Positions 2,596-58,965 of a stretch of 64,000 bases of DNA are shown here, piece after piece (position 1 is the stretch's first letter; each line of letters opens with the position of its first letter). Source of the stretch: Candidatus Saccharimonadia bacterium (GTDB lineage Bacteria > Patescibacteriota > Saccharimonadia > UBA4664 > JBBRNT01); assembly GCA_038230095.1 (NCBI GenBank), contig JBBRNT010000003.1:9811-73810 (forward strand), read 5' to 3'. A program made the position numbers and the translations under genes. Below the pieces are notes generated by a model. The model saw only the letters and a list, made by a program, of their open reading frames with translations, was not told where the DNA came from and searched no databases.

Positions 2596-4278
2596 TTAGA
2601 GCCTAACTACCACGGCACGACCGTCGGTAAAGAACCGGTCTCCACTGGCATTCTGGCCTAGCTCGGGGGCCACGACTTGCAAGAACTCTGAGTCCTGTGC
2701 GCCCAGGGAGCCAGCAATGTAGCTACGCTCAGCGTCAACATTGGGGTCAATGTGGTGCGTGGGGAGCCTAGCTGGCCCGGCAAACTCTATACCTTCATCG
2801 AAGCTGGCGGTGGCAACCCAGATAGGCCGACCATCGGGCAGGGCAAAATCTGTCCGCCAAATCCGGGTGTGGTGACGCTGGCGGAGGGTATTGCTGGCCG
2901 TGGGTTTCTCAAATGCCAGGTCCTGAGGCTTGGCTAGTAAGTAGGAGGGCGTGACGGGGGCCGATAGGTACTGGCCACCCTGGAAGCCAACAGCTACAGC
3001 CCGAAGGGTATTAAAGAGCGTCGAGGGGTCGGCCTTGGTCCAGCCAGCCTGTTCGTAGCGCTGTTTTATCTGGTCCTCGTAGCCCACGTAGATGAATCCA
3101 ATAGGCTCCATATGCGCGCCAGTCAGGGTCTCACTGTACAGCGGCAGCTGGCTGGTGGTTTGCTCGTTGAGCGCTGCCAGCATCCTGTAGCCTGGCGTGG
3201 CAAGAGATACAGTGGGTCGGATAAATATTGGCGCGAGGATAATGCTAAATACCGCGATCGCGAGAGGCACAAAGAGCAGCTTTCGCGCTGGCACTATTGC
3301 TGTACGCTGCCCCCATAGCTGGTAGCGGGCAGAGAGCTCCAGGCAAGCAATAATAATCGTAAGTAGGAAGCCACCAAAAAGCACACTCGCCAAAACGTCA
3401 CTCGGGTAGTGGACGCCTAGGTAGATACGACTCAGGCCAACGAGAAAGACCACGGTAAGGTACGTCGCAGCAATAACAAGCCGGGCCAGCGTGGATTGAA
3501 GCGACTTGTAAAGAAAATAGGCCAACAGCCCATAGAGGAGCGTGGCGCGGAGCGCGTGGCCGCTGGGGAAGCTGGCACTGCTCTCGTGGATGAGGCTTAG
3601 ATAATTTTCAGGCCGAGTACGGCCAACCAGGTGCTTCAATAGAGTGGCTATGAGTTCCTCGGCGACAAACACCGCGGGCAACAGGGCAGCCAGGTATTTC
3701 TGGCCACATCGCCACAGTACCCACCCGAAAAGCGCAGTGAGTACTATCATGGTTTGCCAATTCGCTAGGAACGTAATAATGCTAAAAAAGCTGGTTTGCG
3801 CGGACGGCCGGGTGCTGGGTACTAGGTTGATCACCCGGGTGTCGATGCGAGTGAGTACCTCTTTGAGAAGCACCTGCCGGGTAATGCCAGCAAAGCCCAT
3901 AAGCCAGGCCAGGGCGATAGCGATAGCTACGGTTAAGCCGGGGCCAGTGGGGGAGGCAATGTCGAACCGCCGACGGAGCCAGCTAACCACTGGCGATTTA
4001 CTGCGCAGTATGGTGCGGATGTAACTATTCTTTTGGATGCCGTCCCAGGCAGAAACCAGAATGGAGCCGACTATTTGCAGTGGTTTCCACAGTATGACGA
4101 CCAGGCTGTGAATGAAGGTGAGTGCGAGGATGAGCTGGAGGAGGATAGCCATAGCGAAGAGCGCCGGGGAACCAAATACGTCCCAAGTTTTGGCTAGGTA
4201 TAGATTGATTGCTGACAAGATGATGGCAAGGGCTGATAGTACTAGGTAGGCTCTGAGCTTGAGGTGGGGTTTGTTCAT
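2596..4278 (-). CDS. membrane-bound PAP2-family phosphatase with large C-terminal extracytoplasmic domain (LssY-C-like)
   Basis: PAP2 motifs KX6RP (GRTRPENY), PSGH (SFPSGHA), SRX5HX3D (SRIYLGVHYPSD); about 8 TM helices N-terminal. Confidence 0.8.
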   Translation of the reverse strand: MNKPHLKLRAYLVLSALAIILSAINLYLAKTWDVFGSPALFAMAILLQLILALTFIHSLVVILWKPLQIVGSILVSAWDGIQKNSYIRTILRSKSPVVSWLRRRFDIASPTGPGLTVAIAIALAWLMGFAGITRQVLLKEVLTRIDTRVINLVPSTRPSAQTSFFSIITFLANWQTMIVLTALFGWVLWRCGQKYLAALLPAVFVAEELIATLLKHLVGRTRPENYLSLIHESSASFPSGHALRATLLYGLLAYFLYKSLQSTLARLVIAATYLTVVFLVGLSRIYLGVHYPSDVLASVLFGGFLLTIIIACLELSARYQLWGQRTAIVPARKLLFVPLAIAVFSIILAPIFIRPTVSLATPGYRMLAALNEQTTSQLPLYSETLTGAHMEPIGFIYVGYEDQIKQRYEQAGWTKADPSTLFNTLRAVAVGFQGGQYLSAPVTPSYLLAKPQDLAFEKPTASNTLRQRHHTRIWRTDFALPDGRPIWVATASFDEGIEFAGPARLPTHHIDPNVDAERSYIAGSLGAQDSEFLQVVAPELGQNASGDRFFTDGRAVVVRL

Positions 4279-4423
4279 ATAAGCATAGTGTAGTACGGAA
4301 CGCTATGAGGAGGAAAGCAGCGAGCCTGGCTTGGGCTCAGGCGTAGAAAAGTGCGTCGTACTGCTGGTGGTTCTTCTAGGCATTGGCCTTTGCAGAGCCA
4401 TCTTTCTCTGGTATCCTTGCCCA

Positions 4424-5029
4424 ATGCCGAACCAAACGCTTCGTATTGTGGTAGTTCCTGGTCTTGATGATGGCAAGTACAACATTCTTGGTCTGGTGTC
4501 CCGCATCTGGAATAGCGACCAGGTTCAGATCTATCCGTTGCCGGTAGGTTGGCGCAATGGTGCCTCCTACAAACGCAAGCTGGCCACGTTGCTGGAGCTG
4601 GTGGATGAGCTACTGGCGACTGGCGATCCGGTGGCGATTGTGGGCATTAGTGCCGGGGCTAGCCTAGCGCTCAACGCTTACACCCTCCGCCCCCGACTCC
4701 TCGGTATGGCCAACCTGTGTGGCACCCTGCGCTTTGGGCTTGCGCCGCCGGCGTCCCTGACGCGCCGTGCCTGGGCTGTCCCGGCCTACCACGACTCGGT
4801 GCTAGCCTGCGAGGTGACCCAAGAGAAACTGACGGTGGAGCAACGCCGGCGAGTGCTCATAATGAAGCCGCTGCGTGACGGCATTGTGCCGCTTGCGACC
4901 ATGACGCTCCGGGGCGCCAAAGAGCACCGGGTGGTGGGAGTGAACCACTCGCAAAGCATTGTGACAGCTCTGCTGCTGTACCGCCGAACTATGGTGGGGT
5001 TCTTCCAAGATCTCCTACAGACTGCATAA
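4424..5029 (+). CDS. alpha/beta-hydrolase fold protein (GISAGAS nucleophile elbow)
   Basis: GxSxG motif and beta-strand IVVVPGLDD at N-terminus; start uncertain (maximal ORF from TTG 4331, first ATG 4424). Confidence 0.6.
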   Translation: MPNQTLRIVVVPGLDDGKYNILGLVSRIWNSDQVQIYPLPVGWRNGASYKRKLATLLELVDELLATGDPVAIVGISAGASLALNAYTLRPRLLGMANLCGTLRFGLAPPASLTRRAWAVPAYHDSVLACEVTQEKLTVEQRRRVLIMKPLRDGIVPLATMTLRGAKEHRVVGVNHSQSIVTALLLYRRTMVGFFQDLLQTA

Positions 5030-6100: not shown

Positions 6101-6580
6101 GTGGCATGGTTCAAGAAACGCCCTACCCCCATTCTACCCAGCGCGGCAGCAGCAGCGCGGTGGTGGGCAGACCACCTGCGGCAGGGATATAACCGCTTCC
6201 AGGTGGATGACAGCTCTCCGACTGGGGGCTTTATCACCGCAATGGGGGCCGTGGCACATGCGGGCCGTGGCAACGCACCCACCAAAGACCAGATCGACAG
6301 CTTCGAATTGTGGCTTGCCACGTCCATTAGCCGGGAGCTATTGCGACTGACAAAGGCGTACAACAATCACAACCTTGATTTCGTGCCATACGTGGACCTG
6401 GGTGTCGATTACAGCCCCAAGGGCTTACTGCGTCAAGCGCTGATCGAGAGGGATCTGTTCGACCACTCCATGGTCATGCCCACCAAGTCCCACATGACCG
6501 TGACTCCCACCGGCGTCCAGGTGATTCCTGGCTACAAGGCCAGCCCGATCGAGCTGGTTCTGGCCGAGACCACGGTGTGA
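6101..6580 (+). CDS. hypothetical protein (159 aa)
   Basis: GTG start with gggaggagag RBS 7 nt upstream; palindrome ggcccgggga-gatttc-tccccgggcc downstream at 6613-6640. Confidence 0.5.
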   Translation: MAWFKKRPTPILPSAAAAARWWADHLRQGYNRFQVDDSSPTGGFITAMGAVAHAGRGNAPTKDQIDSFELWLATSISRELLRLTKAYNNHNLDFVPYVDLGVDYSPKGLLRQALIERDLFDHSMVMPTKSHMTVTPTGVQVIPGYKASPIELVLAETTV

Positions 6581-6767: not shown

Positions 6768-7109
6768 ATGCAAGACAACACCCCACAACCAACGCTCGAT
6801 GCCCTCTTCCTGGCGCTGTCACACGGCAAGCGCCGGGGGATGGTGCATATGCTGGCGCTGCAACCCGCAACGGTGAGCCAACTGGCGCGTGACCAAGGGC
6901 TGTCGCTACCGGCAATGCATAAGCATATGGCTATCCTAGAGGCAGCCCAGCTGGTGCAGCGTAAGAAAGCTGGTCGTACCACCTTCGTGGCACTCAATCG
7001 GCGTTCGTTGGGCCTGGTGTGGGAGTGGGCCATGCAGTACCGAACCGAGTGGGGGAGCGACCAAGCCACACTAGAGAACTACGTAGCTAGCCTCTCTAGT
7101 CCTAGCTAA
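6768..7109 (+). CDS. ArsR/SmtB-family winged-helix transcriptional regulator
   Basis: HTH signature ...VSQLARDQGLSLPAMHKHMAILEAAQLV...; size 113 aa. Confidence 0.8.
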   Translation: MQDNTPQPTLDALFLALSHGKRRGMVHMLALQPATVSQLARDQGLSLPAMHKHMAILEAAQLVQRKKAGRTTFVALNRRSLGLVWEWAMQYRTEWGSDQATLENYVASLSSPS

Positions 7110-7169
7110 CGGACCAGTATGATTAGTGTATTAATTACAATAACAGCTCGAAAGAGTAAGGAGTAACAC

Positions 7170-7469
7170 ATGGGAAAATACGTTTTCGAATATTACGACA
7201 CCAAGAATATGTCCAAAGAGGATTCAATGCCAGCCTGGAATGCCTGGTTTGGCGCAATGGGTGACAAGATTATGGATGGGGGTAATCCATTTGCAGACGG
7301 TGGCCAGGCGGTAGAGCCATCTGGCGTGAGCACCATCGAGAACTGGCCTTGCACCGGCTACACTATAGTGAAGGCAGATAGTATGGACGAGGCCACGGCC
7401 ATGGCCAAGACCTGCCCCGTGGTAGTGAGTGGCGGTACCGTGCGCGTCTATGAAGCCCTACCTATGTAG
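7170..7469 (+). CDS. small conserved protein, possibly YciI-like/dimeric alpha-beta barrel fold
   Basis: 99 aa, strong RBS gtaaggag; fold assignment is a guess. Confidence 0.4.
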   Translation: MGKYVFEYYDTKNMSKEDSMPAWNAWFGAMGDKIMDGGNPFADGGQAVEPSGVSTIENWPCTGYTIVKADSMDEATAMAKTCPVVVSGGTVRVYEALPM

Positions 7470-7581: not shown

Positions 7582-8136
7582 CTAGTAGCCACGGGCGGCC
7601 CGGCGGGCTCGGCGACGGGACCAGCCCTGGGTTCTGAGCCACTTGGCGCCGCGTCGACAGCGTTGCCGTCTGGCCTGGTCCTTCCAGAAGAAGGGGAAGA
7701 GCGGTTCCCTGGCGGAGGCTTGCCAGGCTGCCCGCCGGACGGCGTGGTCTGACTTGCCGCCGAGGAGCCTGCCAAGCGCGAGCACGGTCAGGTTCATTAC
7801 TAGTCGCCAGGCCAGGTAGACCCGGAATCCAAGCCAGTACAGCGACCAGAGCGCCCAGACTGTGTCCCAGCTCTGAAGCACTGCAGCTACCACGGCGATT
7901 ACTGAGTAGGCCACGGTGATAAACGCCAGGTACTCGCGGGTGTCCGGTAGCACCGGGCTCCACCACCGCAGGAAGGCCCGCAGGTGCTCGCGCGGGGTGA
8001 GGCTGCCAAGGGCGGGCTCTTTCGGCTTGTCTACGCCGTCGTCGAACAAGCTGTCGTAGGGTACCGGTGTGGCCAAAGTCATTCGATTGACCTCGTGGCT
8101 GAAGCAGATAGGGCAGAGCCGACTATCCTTTCCCAA
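7582..8136 (-). CDS. hypothetical membrane protein with N-terminal CPICF zinc-ribbon-like motif and Arg-rich C-terminus
   Basis: 184-aa ORF, 2-3 TM helices. Confidence 0.5.
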   Translation of the reverse strand: MGKDSRLCPICFSHEVNRMTLATPVPYDSLFDDGVDKPKEPALGSLTPREHLRAFLRWWSPVLPDTREYLAFITVAYSVIAVVAAVLQSWDTVWALWSLYWLGFRVYLAWRLVMNLTVLALGRLLGGKSDHAVRRAAWQASAREPLFPFFWKDQARRQRCRRGAKWLRTQGWSRRRARRAARGY

Positions 8137-8391
8137 CCCCGAAACTAGCCGGGGTAGCTGGGGATTGTCGGCCGGAAAGGTGTGTCGCCAACCGCAACTG
8201 CGGCAGGTTTCGTATCCGAGAATTAGATCTGTGTTGTAAATGGCCTCCTTGGGGCTTGGGGCGCGTTTGCCTTGTGATAGGTATAGCCCGTGAGGTGATG
8301 GAAGTCAAGATTGGCTGCTGGTTATGCTTGGCGTAGGCCGACAACTATGTCACTATAGGCTCGTTCCTTACCATCGAGACAGGAGGCCACT

Positions 8392-8658
8392 ATGGCCGAT
8401 CATCACCAGCTGGGCACTGCGCAGCAACGAATGGGCCCATTGACGGGCACCGGTGGGGTGAGTGTTGGGTTCCCCGTTGAGTGTGGGAGCTGCAGTGTGC
8501 GGTTCGTGGTGGATGAAAGAAAACTCCGCGGTGCGCACGATGTGCACAATCCATACGTGCGCGAGCTGTGGTGCCCTTGCTGCGGTAGCAAGCTGCCGGC
8601 CAAACCCGTGGGGCATCACGTGATGCGCCCCATGCCATTGTTTGGATTGGACGACTGA
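8392..8658 (+). CDS. small zinc-ribbon protein (CxxC...CxxC)
   Basis: aggagg RBS; ATGA overlap with the next gene. Confidence 0.5.
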   Translation: MADHHQLGTAQQRMGPLTGTGGVSVGFPVECGSCSVRFVVDERKLRGAHDVHNPYVRELWCPCCGSKLPAKPVGHHVMRPMPLFGLDD

Positions 8659-8891
8659 TGCGCAGGGTTGGGGGGCGTACCCCGAGAAGTGGCACAACAG
8701 TACCGGTCCCAGTTGATTCGGGGACCGAGCCGTGCCCATACTGTGAAGACGTGGTAACCGCCCTTGATTTAGCTGCGCAAAAGGCGCATATGGAAGCGTG
8801 CCATCCGGAAGTCATAGAGCGGCGTCTGAGCGAGAATGGATTTACCCGTCTGCCCGACGGTAGCGTCCATGACGACTGGGCGTCCGACTAG
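8658..8891 (+). CDS. small C2H2-like zinc-finger protein (CPYC...H-x4-HP)
   Basis: tgATG overlap with upstream gene; paralogous to 9535-9732. Confidence 0.5.
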   Translation: MRRVGGRTPRSGTTVPVPVDSGTEPCPYCEDVVTALDLAAQKAHMEACHPEVIERRLSENGFTRLPDGSVHDDWASD

Positions 8892-9022
8892 CCCCCAAGC
8901 ATGAGCAAGAGCTTCTGTTTGGGGGCTCTTCTTTTGGGGCGGGTGAAGACGCTATTGCTTGTAGTCTGGACAGAGAAGTTGTATGGTATATTATTCATCT
9001 GAGACCCGTGGAGGCGAAACTA

Positions 9023-9538
9023 ATGAATGTACCCGCAGAAGTAGCACTATCGATCAAGATCGGTGCAGATACGCCCATGGCCGTACGTGAGGCACTGACT
9101 GATCTGTTGCGCGCGTTGCGTGACTCGCCGGACGTGGCAGTTCTGGAGGCCCTACCGACGGTTCCAGAAACCCAATTCTTCGACCACGTAGACCTGTGCT
9201 CCTACTTTCAGTCACAGGGCAGCAATCGTAGCCAGGCACTGGACCAAGCACGCCGCATCCTCTCCAACCTTCTAGTGGTACCCACTGCGCGGTTGGCGAT
9301 GTGTGGGCAGTGCAAACAGTGGCACGGAGTATGTCGGTGCCATGGGCATAAATCCGCTGGTAGGTCGCAGCCAGAAGGCTGGGTATACGACTGGGCTTAC
9401 CGTTACTGCTGGCGCTACAGCGTGCCTGCAACTAAAGCATTGAGCGAGCTAGATCTACGGAACTTCTCCAAAGTGAGTCTAGAGCGACTTCGGGCATTCC
9501 TGGACCAGCTGCAGTGTGAGGCGGTGACAGCGGCATGA
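9023..9538 (+). CDS. hypothetical Cys-rich protein (171 aa)
   Basis: ATG 9023 with ggagg 8 nt upstream (maximal ORF from GTG 9008). Confidence 0.5.
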   Translation: MNVPAEVALSIKIGADTPMAVREALTDLLRALRDSPDVAVLEALPTVPETQFFDHVDLCSYFQSQGSNRSQALDQARRILSNLLVVPTARLAMCGQCKQWHGVCRCHGHKSAGRSQPEGWVYDWAYRYCWRYSVPATKALSELDLRNFSKVSLERLRAFLDQLQCEAVTAA

Positions 9539-9732
9539 TGTCCGAACTGCCTCAGACAATGAAGTGTGGTGGCTGCGACACGCAGTTACCTACGGGGGAC
9601 GCTGCAGCGTTCCAGTCACATCTGGATACAGACCACCCCAGTGCACTGGTGCGCGGCTTGCTTAGGAGTGGCTTTGTCCAAACGCGGCATGGCCAGCCCT
9701 GGACCCTGCCCGGAATCTACCCAGCCCCCTAG
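9535..9732 (+). CDS. small C2H2-like zinc-finger protein (CGGC...H-x4-HP), paralogue of 8658-8891
   Basis: ATGATG overlap with upstream stop; shared motif A-x-Q-x2-H-x3-(C/D)-HP. Confidence 0.5.
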   Translation: MMSELPQTMKCGGCDTQLPTGDAAAFQSHLDTDHPSALVRGLLRSGFVQTRHGQPWTLPGIYPAP

Positions 9733-9895
9733 TAAGAGCGAAAGCTCCCGCTTGGGGGCTTTCTTATGTAGCGGCACCGATGAGGGGTGTCGACAGAAGC
9801 CCTTACGCTTGCAATTCTCGGTGTGCCGTTGCACCATATATCAGTTCAAATGCGTTTGCTGGTGCGCCTCACTAGCCGTACCCAAGGAGAGCACC

Positions 9896-10546
9896 ATGCT
9901 TTCAGATGCCGAGACGGCAAAATTCTCAACCCAGGTGCCGGCGCGAGCTGTTCTGGGTCTGCTGTACAAGTTCACACCGCCAGAGTCGGCGTACAACGAT
10001 ACCATCCGGTTGGTGAAGTTCCTGACTGGTCTGGACGAGCTGCCCGATGATTTGTTTGAGCTCTTTCAGTACGAAGACGCGGAGGTAGACAGGCATCCTC
10101 TCTTGAGGGCCTGTGTAGCGGAGATCCAGCAGCAGCTGGATGAGGACTTCCGAAGAGTAGAGATGCCACGGTCCATCAGTAGCGGTACCAGCGAGGCCTG
10201 GCTGACCTACCAGCTGACGCAGTGTGAGGAAGCGTATGAAGTTATTCCCATGCTGGTCCCTGGTGCGGTCTACGAGCTGTCTGGGCCGACCAACCTGGGC
10301 GTGTCGCCACCGCGCTATGAGCTGGTTGGTCTGGCGCACTACATGACAGACGGAAAGAAGCGGGATGGCACGAAGGTGGTCTGCAGAACCCTGTCTCTCG
10401 GCAGCCTGCTGATCTGGTCGCTGGATGATTTTCTGGGAGAAGTAGCCCCCGTGGTAGACCAGCTGACGAGGGCCCAGAGCGATCCGGCGGCAGATTGGGG
10501 ACCGGTGCGCCGGTTCCACTACATGCTTGAGCAGCCTCGCCACTAA
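9896..10546 (+). CDS. hypothetical protein (216 aa)
   Basis: ATG 9896 with aaggaga RBS; the longer ORF from 9566 overlaps the previous gene and lacks an RBS. Confidence 0.5.
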   Translation: MLSDAETAKFSTQVPARAVLGLLYKFTPPESAYNDTIRLVKFLTGLDELPDDLFELFQYEDAEVDRHPLLRACVAEIQQQLDEDFRRVEMPRSISSGTSEAWLTYQLTQCEEAYEVIPMLVPGAVYELSGPTNLGVSPPRYELVGLAHYMTDGKKRDGTKVVCRTLSLGSLLIWSLDDFLGEVAPVVDQLTRAQSDPAADWGPVRRFHYMLEQPRH

Positions 10547-10561
10547 GCCAGATGTTCTGGT

Positions 10562-10589
10562 AGCGCCCCATGAAAATGGGGCGCTTTTC
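10562..10589 (+). terminator. rho-independent terminator (agcgccccat-gaaa-atggggcgct + TTTTC)
   Basis: 10-bp stem, GNRA loop. Confidence 0.8.
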
Positions 10590-10668: not shown

Positions 10669-11226
10669 CTACCAGACCTTGCCAGGGAGCCAGTAGTTGA
10701 GCCAAGGCCAGAGCTCATTCCAGCGATTCTCCGAGATGTGGAGCGTGGTATTGAGTCCAGGTAGCCCAAGGCCGGTGGAGGTCTCAATGAGCGCCACATT
10801 GGCTTGCTCACGGATGACCAGTACATTGGAGGTATTCCAGGTGGCCTGGTGCACCCAGCGGTGGCTGGCGGCGTCTCGGAACAGGAGACCACCATAGTGG
10901 TCGTGGTCGCGGAGGCAAGGAATGAAGAAGACCAGCCCGCGCTCTAGCGCGATCAGGACGCCAAGAAACTCCTCATGGCCGCTATCACGCCAGTGGGTGG
11001 GGGTGCGGGCTGCGAAGCCGCCTGTGTGGCCATAGAGCACGACACTACTGCGGCCGGACGATTGCGGACTACTTCTAGCCGAGAGGTGGAAGTGCTCAGC
11101 CAGGAAGAGTATGGCTTGGTGAGCCCACTGCAGGTGGTGATCATGGTTCTCGGCGCAGTGTTCGAGCTCCTCGTTACGCAGTGCGAGCAGGGCTTCGTGG
11201 ACGCCGGTGAGATTGAGTTTGGGCAT
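10669..11226 (-). CDS. hypothetical His-rich protein (185 aa; HDHH..WAHQ motif, possibly a DinB/YfiT-like metal-binding bundle)
   Basis: Start set at ATG 11224-11226 (MPKLNL...), which has a perfect ggagg RBS 6 nt upstream; the longer ORF to 11262 lacks one. Confidence 0.5.
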   Translation of the reverse strand: MPKLNLTGVHEALLALRNEELEHCAENHDHHLQWAHQAILFLAEHFHLSARSSPQSSGRSSVVLYGHTGGFAARTPTHWRDSGHEEFLGVLIALERGLVFFIPCLRDHDHYGGLLFRDAASHRWVHQATWNTSNVLVIREQANVALIETSTGLGLPGLNTTLHISENRWNELWPWLNYWLPGKVW

Positions 11227-11440
11227 GGTAGCCTCCAGGTGGTCTGAAAGAGCGGGAAACAAAAAACGGTCAGGGCCGCTGGGACAGAGTATAGACGAAT
11301 GTGCGGAAATGAAAAGCTGGCTCTCCTGGGAAGCATTGAATACACAATTTATATTAGTCCTAGTACCGGATAATTCTTGATCGAAGGTGGATTACGGCGT
11401 ATAACAGCTAGTGTTCGTGTACCGAGAGAAAGTTGACAGT

Positions 11441-41660: not shown

Positions 41661-41884
41661 TCGACAGGCGGCTCGCCCGGTATACTAGAAGGGTCTCTGC
41701 CTCATTCGCTGATGGCTGCTTATTTTTCTCTGTTATATTCTTTTTGGGAGCCTAAGATTGCTCCTGGCCTTGGCCTGGATGCTGCGGGCACCCACCTGCT
41801 ACTTGGCAGGGAAAGAATGTGCGGTCGGGCGGTGAAGCGGAGCGCAATTATTTGACGGCTATGGCCGTCCTTCTCGTTGGCGAT

Positions 41885-43640: not shown

Positions 43641-44041
43641 AGCTAGATTGCTAGATGATCGCTTAGGCTGCAAGGCCTGGGAGGAAAGTCCGGACAGCAT
43701 AGAGTAGGACGGTTGCTAACGGCAACCGGGAGTACGTTCGACCATTCTTTCTCTCGAGAAAAGACCGGTCGAGCCAAGCCTAGGGAAAGTGCCACAGAAA
43801 CGAAACCACCCAGCGTAAGCTGGGAACGGGTGAAACGCGCGAGGTAAAAGCTCGTAGTCGCCATGGGTGACCATGGTGGGAGGCAAACCCCGTCCGCTGC
43901 AAGGCAGTTAGTCTACCCCAAGGGGCGTTACTCGCGTCGACTAACGGGTGTCCGCACGAGACTATTGGCAACAATAGTCCCAGATAGATGATCATCGCCC
44001 TGCAAGGGGAGACAGAATCCGGCTTACCGGCAATCTGGCAC
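43641..44041 (+). ncRNA. rnpB: RNase P RNA, bacterial type A
   Basis: GGAAAGTCCGG (P4 5' strand), gccacAGAAA, ACAGAATCCGGCTTA (P4 3' strand), P1 pairing agattgc/gcaatct; about 400 nt without ORFs. Confidence 0.85.
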
Positions 44042-44045
44042 TAGA

Positions 44046-58586: not shown

Positions 58587-58965
58587 CGGGGCTGACCAGC
58601 TTTGACGTTTGGACTTTTACAACCTAGCTTGCAAGCCGTAGGTATGCGTTAAATCCACCAATCAATAGATGCAAACTCTATCGTATCGCGCGTGAAGGCT
58701 CTGTTCGCAGCTCCTTCATTCGCACCAGCTTTCGCCTAATCGCCTAAGCCATCGACCTCCTGACGCCAGATAGGGGCCGGCCGGTGCCAAATTATCTGAC
58801 TGCTTTACAACTGAGATATGCGTTGTAATTAAGACTACAATCTGCTCCTCATTCTTATTTCGTTTACTTCAAGAGGATGGGGCTAAGACAACAAAGTAAA
58901 CTACGCTTGTAGACGGCTGGGTTGTATCCAGACGGACCCGGGTGCAATTCCCGGCAGCTCCTCCA
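58587..58965 (+). ncRNA. ssrA: tmRNA (SsrA)
   Basis: 5' GGGGCTGA + ctttgacg (cf. E. coli GGGGCUGAUUCUGGAUUCGACGGG); 3' ggacccgggtgcaattcccggCAGCTCCtCCA (cf. E. coli ggacgcggguucaacucccgcCAGCUCCACCA); G3:U wobble in acceptor; resume site aatagatGCAAAC (cf. AAUAGUCGCAAAC); tag ORF 58670-58738. Confidence 0.9.

What the first reader, a model, noticed from the sequence alone, without database searches (positions are those of the whole stretch)
8392..10546. Operon of small Cys/His zinc-finger-like proteins with two paralogous C2H2-type members
Five translationally coupled genes (ATGA/ATGATG overlaps). They include a CxxC...CxxC zinc ribbon (8392-8658). Two short proteins (8658-8891 and 9535-9732) are paralogues sharing the unusual motif C-x2-C-x10-12-A-x-Q-x2-H-x3-(C/D)-H-P, a C2H2-like knuckle that is rare in bacteria. 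Each follows a larger Cys-rich partner: the 88-aa zinc ribbon (8392-8658) and the 171-aa Cys-rich protein (9023-9538, CGQCKQWHGVCRCHGH). The upstream divergent gene (7582-8136) also begins with a zinc ribbon. Function is unknown. It could be a nucleic-acid-binding or regulatory module.
Basis: seen in the sequence. Interest (0 to 1): 0.5.

Follow-up and report, generated by a model that had tools for sequence, protein, structure and literature searches.

The report
Uncatalogued bacterial C2H2-type mini zinc fingers
Two short genes here belong to a real but uncatalogued family of tiny, acidic, single Cys2His2 zinc-finger proteins found in bacteria and phages; each is translationally coupled to a different Cys-rich partner gene, and their function is still unknown.

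Summary
The ORFs are real genes. Three related metagenomic loci keep them under purifying selection (dN/dS 0.06-0.32) and keep every proposed Cys/His ligand.

The layout is not one five-gene coupled operon. It is two bicistronic units: A-B (8392-8891) and C-D (9023-9732). Each has a stop/start overlap and ends in a conserved hairpin. A third gene, E, is unrelated and is not conserved beside the cluster.

B and D are paralogues, but they belong to two different subfamilies. The wider family has about 120 clusters among 1.84 billion representative proteins. Members have a median length of 66 aa and a median pI of 5.2. The core is C-P-x-C-x14-H-M-x3-H-P, followed by a helix and a beta-hairpin. 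Members occur in bacterial chromosomes, including CPR bacteria, and in phage-like gene arrays.

No Pfam, NCBIfam, PHROG or PADLOC model covers the family. Its nearest sequence and fold relatives are eukaryotic BED/SPIN-DOC and classical C2H2 fingers, all below membership thresholds.

A (a 4-Cys zinc ribbon) and C (a CxxC-x6-CxC cluster) are lineage-specific. Other family members carry comparable Cys clusters fused N-terminal to the finger, which suggests that partner and finger work as one unit.

My best guess is that the fingers are zinc-stabilised protein-binding adaptor subunits, not classical DNA-reading fingers. The function is unproven.

The parts
8392..8658 (+). Gene A: 88-aa lineage-specific zinc ribbon (C31-x2-C34 ... 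C61-x-C63-C64), first gene of unit 1, with its own AGGAGG Shine-Dalgarno (SD) site
   Evidence: The orthologues in L002 and L011/L010 are 64-71% identical with dN/dS 0.15-0.24, and all five Cys are invariant. The start at 8392 is supported by the conserved N-terminus MA(D/E)xHxLGTAQQ and by the SD in L011. Pfam gives only a sub-threshold Zn_ribbon_4 match (16.5 bits against a cut-off of 30.3).
8658..8891 (+). Gene B: 77-aa acidic (pI 5.0) single Cys2His2 finger of the 'B-type' subfamily, with ligands C26, C29, H44, H49. It has a conserved Arg-rich N-terminal tail, no SD of its own, and its start overlaps the A stop (TGATG).
   Evidence: dN/dS is 0.06-0.32 against three relatives. The family HMM scores 77 bits. 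The AF2 model shows b23-25, b32-34, a38-48, a50-59, b62-64, b70-72, with core pLDDT 80-86.
8890..8935 (+). Hairpin plus T-run: intrinsic terminator of unit A-B
   Evidence: -29 kcal/mol, z -3.8. A hairpin sits at the same place in L002 (-35.5 kcal/mol) and L010 (-18.5 kcal/mol), with compensatory changes. It is 79% identical over 38 nt to the hairpin after D.
8948..9022 (+). Conserved promoter/5'UTR block of unit C-D (GCTATTGCTTG..AGT...GAAGTTGTA..GTAT..TATTCATC ... GGAGG)
   Evidence: The B-C intergenic alignment, which also includes the terminator, has 82% mean column identity across three genomes. Over the same genomes, synonymous sites differ at 57-88% of positions (pS). A sigma-70-like site was found at 8967-8994. 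Which hexamers are actually used was not resolved.
9023..9538 (+). Gene C: 171-aa lineage-specific protein with a conserved Cys cluster C-x2-C-x6-C-x-C (C94, C97, C104, C106; numbering as) plus C59. It is the first gene of unit 2 and has a GGAGG SD.
   Evidence: Orthologues are 55-66% identical with dN/dS 0.19-0.24. There is no match in Pfam, NCBIfam, PHROG or PADLOC, in PDB, in phages or in JGI metagenomes. The single-sequence AF2 model failed (pLDDT 41).
9535..9732 (+). Gene D: 65-aa single Cys2His2 finger of the divergent 'D-type' subfamily, with ligands C11, C14, H29, H34. It has no SD of its own, and its start overlaps the C stop (ATGA).
   Evidence: Orthologues are P0013 (in L008/L009) and the D gene of L010, at 57-67% identity and dN/dS about 0.27. 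The family HMM scores 56 bits.
9723..9770 (+). Hairpin after D: terminator-like, with a weak T tract
   Evidence: -17.2 kcal/mol with z of only -1.4 in the window; -19.4 kcal/mol with z -3.5 in L010. The sequence is nearly invariant in three genomes.
9896..10546 (+). Gene E: 216-aa acidic protein with its own SD and a terminator (hairpin at 10562-10585). It is adjacent to the conserved module but not part of it.
   Evidence: The relatives have a NUDIX-like gene (L008) or an unrelated gene (L010) at this position, and E has no homologue in any fetched locus. E matches no family.
7582..8262 (-). Divergent neighbour U: a basic membrane-type protein. The CRSC-x27-CPIC zinc ribbon lies in the open frame upstream of the called start.
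   Evidence: Its relation to the A-D module is unknown, because the relatives' contigs end before this point.

Best explanation
SHOWN.
- The locus holds two independently transcribed, translationally coupled gene pairs, A-B and C-D. Both pairs are conserved as a four-gene cluster in at least two related uncultured genomes.
- B and D are members of two subfamilies of an uncatalogued prokaryote/phage family of very small, mostly acidic proteins.
- Each family member is built on one Cys2His2 beta-beta-alpha zinc finger (C-P-x-C-x14-H-M-x3-H-P), extended by a second helix and a beta-hairpin (R-L-x2-A-G-F ... G-x-W-x-D).
- A is a 4-Cys zinc ribbon. C carries a CxxC-x6-CxC cluster. Both are specific to this lineage.

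INFERRED.
- B and D lack their own ribosome-binding sites and overlap the upstream stop codon. They are therefore probably made by termination-reinitiation, in a fixed ratio with A and C.
- Each finger then binds its Cys-rich partner, so that A.B and C.D act like the single-chain 'Cys-cluster + finger' proteins seen elsewhere in the family.
- Within such a complex the finger is a zinc-stabilised protein-protein (adaptor or regulatory) module aimed at a conserved cellular target. It is not a sequence-reading DNA finger.
- The family's frequent place in phage early-gene arrays suggests that the ancestral role is modulation of a host machine. The chromosomal copies here would be domesticated or moron-like versions.
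For: - Coding and selection: dN/dS is 0.06-0.32 for A, B, C and D, and all ligand Cys/His are conserved.
- Unit structure: the overlaps, SD presence or absence, hairpins and conserved promoter block are documented.
- Synteny: L002+L008 carry A-B|C-D, and L011+L010 carry A-B|C-D.
- Family size: 121 hits at E<1e-3 among 1.84 billion representatives.
- Family conservation: among 71 small members, C29, H44 and H49 are invariant, and C26, P27, M45, P50 and R56 are at least 90% conserved.
- Family properties: 152 single-domain members, median 66 aa, median pI 5.2, median domain net charge -4.
- Sequence relatives: a PDB profile hit to a ZFAT finger at E 6.8e-4, with TAX1BP1 UBZ at 0.01. The eukaryotic hits of the profile are BED/SPIN-DOC arrays.
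- Partner-as-one-unit: 11 of 45 members with an N-terminal extension of at least 25 aa carry a Cys cluster before the finger, against 3.7% of background segments (rough binomial p about 6e-7).
  - P0170/P0171 have CxxC-x20-21-CxC, resembling A.
  - P0110 has CxxC-x6-CxC, the same spacing as C.
- Phage link: L004, L020 and L021 are arrays of tiny co-directional genes, one of them with RusA, and L017 is a 130-kb IMG/VR contig.
Against: - No direct evidence of any A.B or C.D contact. No multimer modelling was possible.
- Family-wide there is no conserved neighbour. Many members are stand-alone genes in chromosomes (L005, L007, L018, L016).
- The fused Cys clusters show no detectable sequence homology to A or C. 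The Rosetta-stone argument therefore rests on architecture only.
- In L012 the gene overlapping a B-type finger is a D-type finger, not an A- or C-like protein. The relevant pairing could therefore be B with D.
- The nearest known relatives (BED and classical C2H2 fingers) are mostly DNA binders, and B-type proteins keep an Arg-rich tail.
- The fold-search scores are individually insignificant.
- The background set for the enrichment test is small, and the family members are not independent.
Confidence: 0.45

Rival explanations
1. B and D are small DNA-binding transcription regulators, a prokaryotic counterpart of BED or Ros/MucR-type fingers. They would autoregulate their own bicistronic operons, with A and C as co-regulated cargo or co-factors.
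For: - The closest sequence and fold relatives are DNA-binding BED and C2H2 fingers.
- B-type proteins keep an Arg-rich N-terminal tail, MRRLRVRTxR.
- The C-D promoter region is far more conserved than synonymous sites, as expected if it holds an operator.
Against: - The family is acidic: median pI 5.2 and domain charge -4. B has net charge -5.
- There is only one finger per protein.
- The residues on the helix between the second Cys and the first His are conserved across the family (D, A-Q, H-M-E) instead of varying with target.
- No shared operator-like repeat was found between the two promoter regions.
- No Ros/MucR match was found.
Confidence: 0.25
2. The two pairs are conflict modules, either toxin-antitoxin-like or phage defence/anti-defence pairs. 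The acidic finger would neutralise or sense its Cys-rich partner.
For: - Each pair is a compact, overlapping two-gene unit with its own promoter and terminator.
- The second-gene products are acidic.
- The family is common in phage early-gene arrays.
- The genes flanking the cluster differ between relatives.
- A gives a weak PADLOC PDC-M14A match at E 8e-4.
- The nearby ORF 6101-6580 matches a PHROG.
Against: - No recognisable toxin, nuclease or other effector domain in A or C.
- The PADLOC match is only a zinc-knuckle stretch.
- Most family members are stand-alone.
- No integrase or other mobile-element marker lies nearby. The window carries housekeeping RNA genes (RNase P, 6S RNA, tmRNA, six tRNAs), but the nearest, apart from a tRNA about 8 kb upstream, are 6-50 kb from the locus.
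- Purifying selection on all four genes is uniform.
Confidence: 0.12
3. The functional pair is B-type with D-type. The two finger subfamilies would heterodimerise, and A and C would be lineage-specific add-ons.
For: - B-type and D-type genes co-occur in all four related loci.
- In L012/L013 a D-type gene directly overlaps a B-type gene by 8 nt, with no A or C.
- The two subfamilies are old, only 25% identical, and both are retained.
Against: - In three of the four loci they are in different transcription units.
- No fused double-finger protein was found in the family. The apparent second domains are only CxxC motifs.
- Outside this lineage, members occur singly.
Confidence: 0.13
4. The small ORFs are chance ORFs, and the Cys/His pattern is a coincidence.
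For: None after testing. The only point in favour is that all five proteins are singletons at 90% clustering.
Against: - dN/dS is well below 1, with an excess of third-position changes.
- Start sites, SDs, overlaps and terminators are conserved.
- There are 121 family hits.
Confidence: 0.01

Closest known systems
BED-type zinc fingers (Pfam PF02892), including the SPIN-DOC finger (PF18658, zf-C2H2_12)
   Same: - The ligand pattern and spacing match: C-x2-C-x14-15-H-x4-H followed by P-[DE], as in ...RHLxxxHP(D/E)....
- A profile built from B, its orthologue and D retrieves BED/SPIN-DOC finger arrays as its only eukaryotic hits.
- zf-C2H2_12 is the most frequent weak Pfam match, seen in 18 of 71 members.
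   Different: - No member reaches the Pfam gathering score.
- The N-terminal strand with a conserved aromatic residue, which distinguishes BED from plain C2H2 fingers (PMC1702500), is absent. Many members start 2-8 residues before the first Cys.
- The family has its own C-terminal helix plus beta-hairpin (RLxxAGF...GxWxD).
- Members are acidic, carry a single finger, and are prokaryotic or phage-encoded.
Classical C2H2 (TFIIIA/Krueppel-type) zinc finger, PF00096
   Same: - The predicted fold is beta-hairpin plus helix, with two Cys on the hairpin and two His on the helix.
- A family-profile search of PDB hits a ZFAT finger at E 6.8e-4.
- CTCF, tramtrack and ZIM-1 fingers superpose over about 30 residues at 1.3-2.5 A.
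   Different: - The spacing is x14, not x12.
- There is one finger only, with no TGEKP-type linker.
- Helix positions are conserved rather than variable.
- The net charge is acidic.
- No member reaches the Pfam cut-off.
Ubiquitin-binding zinc fingers (UBZ) of TAX1BP1, NDP52 and Pol kappa
   Same: These are single, small C2H2-type fingers that bind a protein, not DNA. The motif is similar: C-P-x-C-x3-[FL]-P-x2-D-x3-F-x2-H (PDB profile hits at E 0.01-0.4).
   Different: - The E-values are not significant.
- The spacing differs by one residue, and UBZ has H-x3-H rather than H-x4-H.
- No ubiquitin system is known in these bacteria.
- The resemblance is a functional analogy only.
Ros/MucR prokaryotic zinc finger (PF05443)
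   Same: It is the best-known bacterial Cys2His2-type zinc-binding domain (from general knowledge).
   Different: - Ros has C-x2-C-x9-H-x3-4-H in a larger, basic DNA-binding domain of about 58 residues (from general knowledge).
- B and D give no PF05443 match even at E<=1.
MJ0042-type / Zn_ribbon_4 zinc ribbons (for protein A)
   Same: Two Cys knuckles 26 residues apart flank a beta-rich segment. There is a weak Zn_ribbon_4 match at E 0.008.
   Different: The score is below threshold (16.5 against 30.3 bits). The second knuckle is C-P-C-C. No homologues exist outside the three related loci.

Membership tests
Classical C2H2 zinc finger (PF00096 and related) | Two Cys and two His ligands, conserved, in the order C..C..H..H | tested here: met
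   C26, C29, H44 and H49 are conserved in all orthologues. They are invariant or at least 90% conserved in 71 family members.
Classical C2H2 zinc finger (PF00096 and related) | Beta-beta-alpha fold | tested here: met
Classical C2H2 zinc finger (PF00096 and related) | Canonical spacing C-x2-4-C-x12-H-x3-5-H and a score above the Pfam gathering threshold | tested here: not met
   The spacing is x14. None of 71 members reaches the gathering score of any Pfam C2H2 model. The best PDB profile hit is ZFAT at E 6.8e-4.
BED finger (PF02892) / SPIN-DOC finger (PF18658) | Signature C-x2-C-xn-H-x3-5-[HC] | tested here: met
   The family has C-x2-C-x14-H-x4-H-P. The profile retrieves BED/SPIN-DOC arrays, identified as such.
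BED finger (PF02892) / SPIN-DOC finger (PF18658) | Extra N-terminal strand with a conserved aromatic residue (PMC1702500) | tested here: not met
   There is no conserved aromatic residue upstream of the first Cys. Many members begin 2-8 residues before it.
BED finger (PF02892) / SPIN-DOC finger (PF18658) | Score above the Pfam gathering threshold | tested here: not met
   For zf-C2H2_12, the best result is E 5.4e-4, in 18 of 71 members. B scores 16.3 bits and D 14.3 bits against a cut-off of 27.3. zf-BED matches 2 of 71 members at E about 0.014.
Ros/MucR (PF05443) | Pfam match; C-x2-C-x9-H spacing; basic DNA-binding domain | tested here: not met
   No match at E<=1. The spacing is x14. B has pI 5.0 and D pI 6.2.
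Zinc ribbon (protein A) | Two Cys knuckles separated by about 15-30 residues and conserved | tested here: met
   CGSC and CPCC are 26 residues apart and invariant in three sequences.
Zinc ribbon (protein A) | Membership of a curated zinc-ribbon family (Zn_ribbon_4 / MJ0042) | tested here: not met
   16.5 bits against a cut-off of 30.3. No NCBIfam match above cut-off.
Type II toxin-antitoxin or known defence system | A recognisable toxin/effector domain and antitoxin DNA-binding domain, or a PADLOC system model | tested here: not met
   No Pfam, NCBIfam or PADLOC family for A-E beyond a 17.8-bit zinc-knuckle match.
Any of the above | Actual zinc binding and the identity of the ligand (DNA, RNA or protein) | not testable with these tools
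   Requires metal analysis and binding assays.

The most novel reading that the evidence does not exclude
The B/D family is a genuine prokaryotic and phage lineage of BED/C2H2-type fingers, homologous to the eukaryotic BED/SPIN-DOC finger. It would be a minimal, free-standing, protein-binding form of the fold. Phages would use it to dock onto a conserved host machine, and bacteria would have captured it and paired it, by gene fusion or translational coupling, with assorted Cys-cluster modules. If so, it would give a concrete prokaryote/virus-side relative for a finger class thought to be essentially eukaryotic and transposon-borne, and it would define a new class of two-part zinc mini-proteins.
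Probability: 0.2. Interest if true: 0.65.

Novelty: new variant of a known kind. Interest (0 to 1): 0.42.

Why it matters
- Cys2His2 fingers are the commonest DNA-binding module of eukaryotes but are very rare in bacteria. In one survey of prokaryotic genomes, zf-BED was among the rarest DNA-binding families tabulated (PMC7017128).
- This finding defines a coherent family of single-finger mini-proteins of about 66 aa that is missing from Pfam, NCBIfam, PHROGs and PADLOC.
- The family spans phages, CPR bacteria and this lineage, and it has a clear motif that can be used to annotate it.
- It is relevant to the origin of C2H2/BED fingers.
- It adds a tractable example to the little-studied world of bacterial and phage small proteins.
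- The split-versus-fused arrangement with Cys-cluster partners gives a directly testable hypothesis of complex formation.
- Without a function, the finding remains a family description, not a mechanism.

Tried and rejected
**Library searches**
- Pfam, NCBIfam, PHROGs and PADLOC on A-E and the flanking genes gave only sub-threshold zinc-knuckle matches.
- The same libraries run on 71 family members found no covering family.
- Pfam on 20 fusion proteins found no known fused domain.

**Homology searches**
- Word-indexed searches with B and with D returned only self plus one orthologue.
- The genome-contig scan with the B/D alignment found nothing, not even the source genome.
- A flanking PAP2/LssY protein found only a 53%-identical Nanopelagicales MAG with no synteny, so the taxon of the window remains unknown.
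- The metagenome scan with C found nothing.
- tblastn of C, E and two family members against 50,697 phage records and 72,556 plasmids gave no significant match; the only hit was C at E 0.5.

**Structure**
- AF2 of C from a single sequence failed (pLDDT 41).

**Relationships within the locus**
- A and C are not related to each other (hhalign probability 0.4%).
- BLAST of A, C, E, U and F against all family proteins found no homologous fusion.
- Apparent double-finger family members turned out to have only a CxxC as the 'second domain'.
- No shared operator-like repeat was found between the two promoter regions.

**Literature**
- Literature searches found no description of this family.
Full report
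**1. What is in the sequence**

The + strand of 8392-10546 carries five ORFs:

| Gene | Coordinates | Length |
|---|---|---|
| A | 8392-8658 | 88 aa |
| B | 8658-8891 | 77 aa |
| C | 9023-9538 | 171 aa |
| D | 9535-9732 | 65 aa |
| E | 9896-10546 | 216 aa |

- E's ATG follows AAGGAG. The 9566 start is only the longest ORF.
- A, C and E have Shine-Dalgarno (SD) sites (AGGAGG, GGAGG, AAGGAG). B and D have none.
- Only two junctions overlap. A/B reads TGATG (1 nt shared). C/D reads ATGATG (4 nt shared).
- Between B and C lie 131 nt. They hold a long hairpin plus T-run (-29 kcal/mol, z -3.8) and a promoter-like block.
- Between D and E lie 163 nt with another hairpin. E ends in a textbook terminator.
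- The layout is therefore three transcription units (A-B, C-D, E), not one five-gene coupled operon.

**2. Are the genes real?**

All five proteins are singletons at 90% clustering. An exhaustive HMMER search and exact-sequence look-ups nevertheless recovered short metagenomic contigs from related organisms.

- L002 and L008 overlap exactly over 84 nt. Together they give A-B | C-D followed by a NUDIX-like gene.
- L011 and L010 give A-B | C-D followed by an unrelated gene.
- L012 and L013 give a D-type gene overlapping a B-type gene by 8 nt.
- Pairwise dN/dS is 0.15-0.24 for A, 0.06-0.32 for B, 0.19-0.24 for C and about 0.27 for D. Changes are in excess at third codon positions.
- The conserved N-terminus and SD in L011 confirm 8392 as the A start.
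- Conserved residues:
  - A: CGSC and CPCC.
  - B and D: C..C..H..H.
  - C: the four Cys of CxxC-x6-CxC plus one upstream Cys.
The C/D residue before the last His of B and D is also not conserved.
- Both overlaps, both hairpins (with compensatory changes) and the C-D promoter/5'UTR block are conserved. The intergenic alignment has 82% mean column identity, while synonymous sites differ at 57-88% of positions.
- E has no counterpart in any relative and is not part of the module.

**3. What B and D are**

- B and D align at 31% identity over 42 aa (E 8e-7).
- No curated family covers them. Pfam gives only sub-threshold zf-C2H2_12 (SPIN-DOC finger) matches. NCBIfam, PHROGs and PADLOC give nothing.
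- A profile of B, its orthologue and D, searched against 1.84 billion representative proteins, found 121 proteins at E<1e-3.
- Most of these hits are prokaryote-type proteins of 50-100 aa. Their consensus is KCPGCxxxLPxxDxxAQxxHMxxxHPEIIxxRLxxAGxxxxxxxxWxD.
- Among 71 small members, C29, H44 and H49 are invariant. C26, P27, M45, P50 and R56 are at least 90% conserved.
- 152 single-domain members have a median length of 66 aa, a median pI of 5.2 and a median domain charge of -4.
- None of the 71 reaches any Pfam gathering score, and neither PHROGs nor NCBIfam has a model. The family is uncatalogued in these libraries.
- AF2 on B predicts strand-strand-helix (the finger), then a second helix and a beta-hairpin. 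The core pLDDT is 80-86.
- Fold searches are individually insignificant for so small a domain, but they agree in kind:
  - Foldseek aligns CTCF, tramtrack and ZIM-1 fingers at 1.3-2.5 A over about 30 residues.
- The family profile hits a ZFAT C2H2 finger in PDB at E 6.8e-4 and the TAX1BP1 UBZ fingers at 0.01-0.02.
- Apart from one low-complexity repeat protein, the long multi-stretch eukaryotic hits I scanned are all BED or SPIN-DOC finger arrays. They share the pattern C-x2-C-x14-15-H-x4-H-P-[DE].
- The nearest known kind is therefore the BED/C2H2 finger. Membership fails on two counts: the score thresholds, and the BED-defining N-terminal aromatic strand (PMC1702500), which is absent.
- B is close to the mainstream of the family, at 50-55% identity to many members. 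D, its orthologues and the upstream gene of L012 form a divergent clade. B ranks 110th of 153 among D's neighbours. B and D are therefore two old subfamilies kept together in this lineage, not a recent tandem duplicate.
- The 38-nt hairpins after the two genes are nonetheless 79% identical.

**4. Where the family lives**

I examined members on longer contigs and in related fetched loci.

- Four sit in phage-like arrays of tiny co-directional overlapping genes. These are L004, L020 (with DUF6085), L021 (with RusA) and L017 (a 130-kb IMG/VR contig).
- Four are stand-alone genes in chromosomal-looking or unclassified contexts:
  - L005, next to Mur ligase, FtsQ and DNA polymerase III tau/gamma.
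  - L007, between hydrogenase and pyruvate:ferredoxin oxidoreductase genes.
  - L018, a Candidatus Colwellbacteria MAG.
  - L016.
- Source names include Candidatus Paceibacterota and Colwellbacteria.
- No neighbour is conserved family-wide.
- No member was found in GenBank phages or in PLSDB plasmids by tblastn.
- The window carries RNase P RNA, 6S RNA, tmRNA and six tRNAs elsewhere. No integrase or other mobile-element marker was found among the ORFs scanned. Its taxon could not be determined.

**5. The partners**

- A is a 4-Cys zinc ribbon, with only a sub-threshold Zn_ribbon_4 match.
- C has no detectable relative anywhere outside the three loci. It could not be modelled.
- A and C are unrelated to each other.
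- The family's fusion proteins carry extensions that are unrelated to A, C or E and unrelated to one another. They hold no Pfam domain.
- However, 11 of the 45 members with an N-terminal extension of at least 25 aa carry a Cys cluster just upstream of the finger:
  - P0170/P0171 have CxxC-x20-21-CxC, an A-like ribbon.
  - P0110 has CxxC-x6-CxC, exactly the spacing of C.
  - The others are P0081, P0073, P0043, P0022, P0169, P0118, P0074 and P0017.
- Only 3.7% of background 70-aa segments have such a cluster (rough binomial p about 6e-7). The background set is small and the family members are not independent.
- This is an architectural Rosetta-stone argument: a Cys-cluster module and the finger work as one unit. 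In this locus the unit is split into two translationally coupled genes.

**6. Mechanism (inference)**

- B and D have no SD and overlap the upstream stop codon. They are probably translated by reinitiation, in a fixed ratio with A and C, and assemble with them.
- Three features fit a protein-binding adaptor better than a sequence-reading DNA finger. UBZ fingers and the SPIN-DOC finger are precedents for such adaptors.
  - The fingers are acidic.
  - There is one finger per protein.
  - The residues on the 'recognition' helix are conserved across phages and distant bacteria.
- The phage early-gene context suggests a conserved host target.
- I put about 0.45 on this composite. The structural and family identity is solid. 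The complex formation and the protein-binding role are unproven.
- Rivals:
  - an autoregulatory DNA-binding regulator (0.25);
  - a B-D heterodimer as the real pair (0.13);
  - a conflict or toxin-antitoxin-like module (0.12);
  - chance ORFs (0.01, refuted).

**7. Verdict**

- It is wrong on the operon structure, on the inclusion of E, on the details of the motif, and on the His residues of C.
- The finding is a new, uncatalogued family-level variant of a known fold class, with an interesting split/fused pairing to Cys-cluster modules. It has no demonstrated function.
- Interest is moderate.

Noticed in passing
window 7582-8262 (- strand): The divergent neighbour's reading frame stays open about 180 nt upstream of the called start (ATG 8082). 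That stretch encodes a full CRSC-x27-CPIC zinc ribbon directly behind AAGGAGG (about 8244-8250). No ATG, GTG or TTG occurs there before TTG 8136. Possible explanations are a non-canonical start (ATT follows the SD by 2 nt), a sequencing error, or a decayed N-terminus.
   Followed up: partly
window 8890-8927 and 9723-9760: The hairpins after B and D are 79% identical over 38 nt, although B and D themselves are only about 25% identical. This suggests a shared origin or gene conversion of the 3' flanks.
   Followed up: partly
window 9795-9835; L010 1395-1430: A block of about 40 nt after the D hairpin (TTACGCTTGCAATTC..GGTGT..CGTTGCA, promoter-like) is conserved between the window and L010, even though the downstream genes are unrelated.
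   Followed up: no
L012 35-518 (also L013): In a third relative, an 88-aa D-type finger gene overlaps a 74-aa B-type finger gene by 8 nt, with no A- or C-like gene between them.
   Followed up: partly
window 6101-6580 (+): This 159-aa ORF matches phrog_8937 (unknown function) at E 6e-9. It is the only phage-family hit near the locus.
   Followed up: no
window 10669-11262 (-): The convergent downstream ORF is His-rich: 17 His in the 197-aa TTG-start ORF that was analysed (the gene caller's version is 185 aa, 10669-11226). It matches no family in any library.
   Followed up: no
window 6768-7469 (+): An ArsR/HTH_20-type regulator lacking an obvious metal-sensing Cys motif, followed by a weak, sub-threshold match to a YCII-like protein, lies just upstream of the divergent gene.
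   Followed up: no
window 41691-41847, 43643-44042, 58588-58965; tRNAs at 268, 16245, 16321, 28662, 30231, 41925: 6S RNA, class A RNase P RNA, tmRNA and six tRNA genes are present, so the window is bacterial chromosome and not a mobile element.
   Followed up: yes
L002 1-58: The first 58 nt of this public metagenome contig are Illumina adapter sequence (…GTGACTGGAGTTCAGACGTGTGCTCTTCCGATCT). The adapter truncates the orthologue of gene A.
   Followed up: yes
L017 5005-5493: The viral contig that carries a family member also encodes, about 500 nt upstream, a 162-aa protein with several CxxC(G) repeats resembling a DnaJ-type zinc-finger region. Further upstream, a ParB-like gene lies at 3748-4569.
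   Followed up: no
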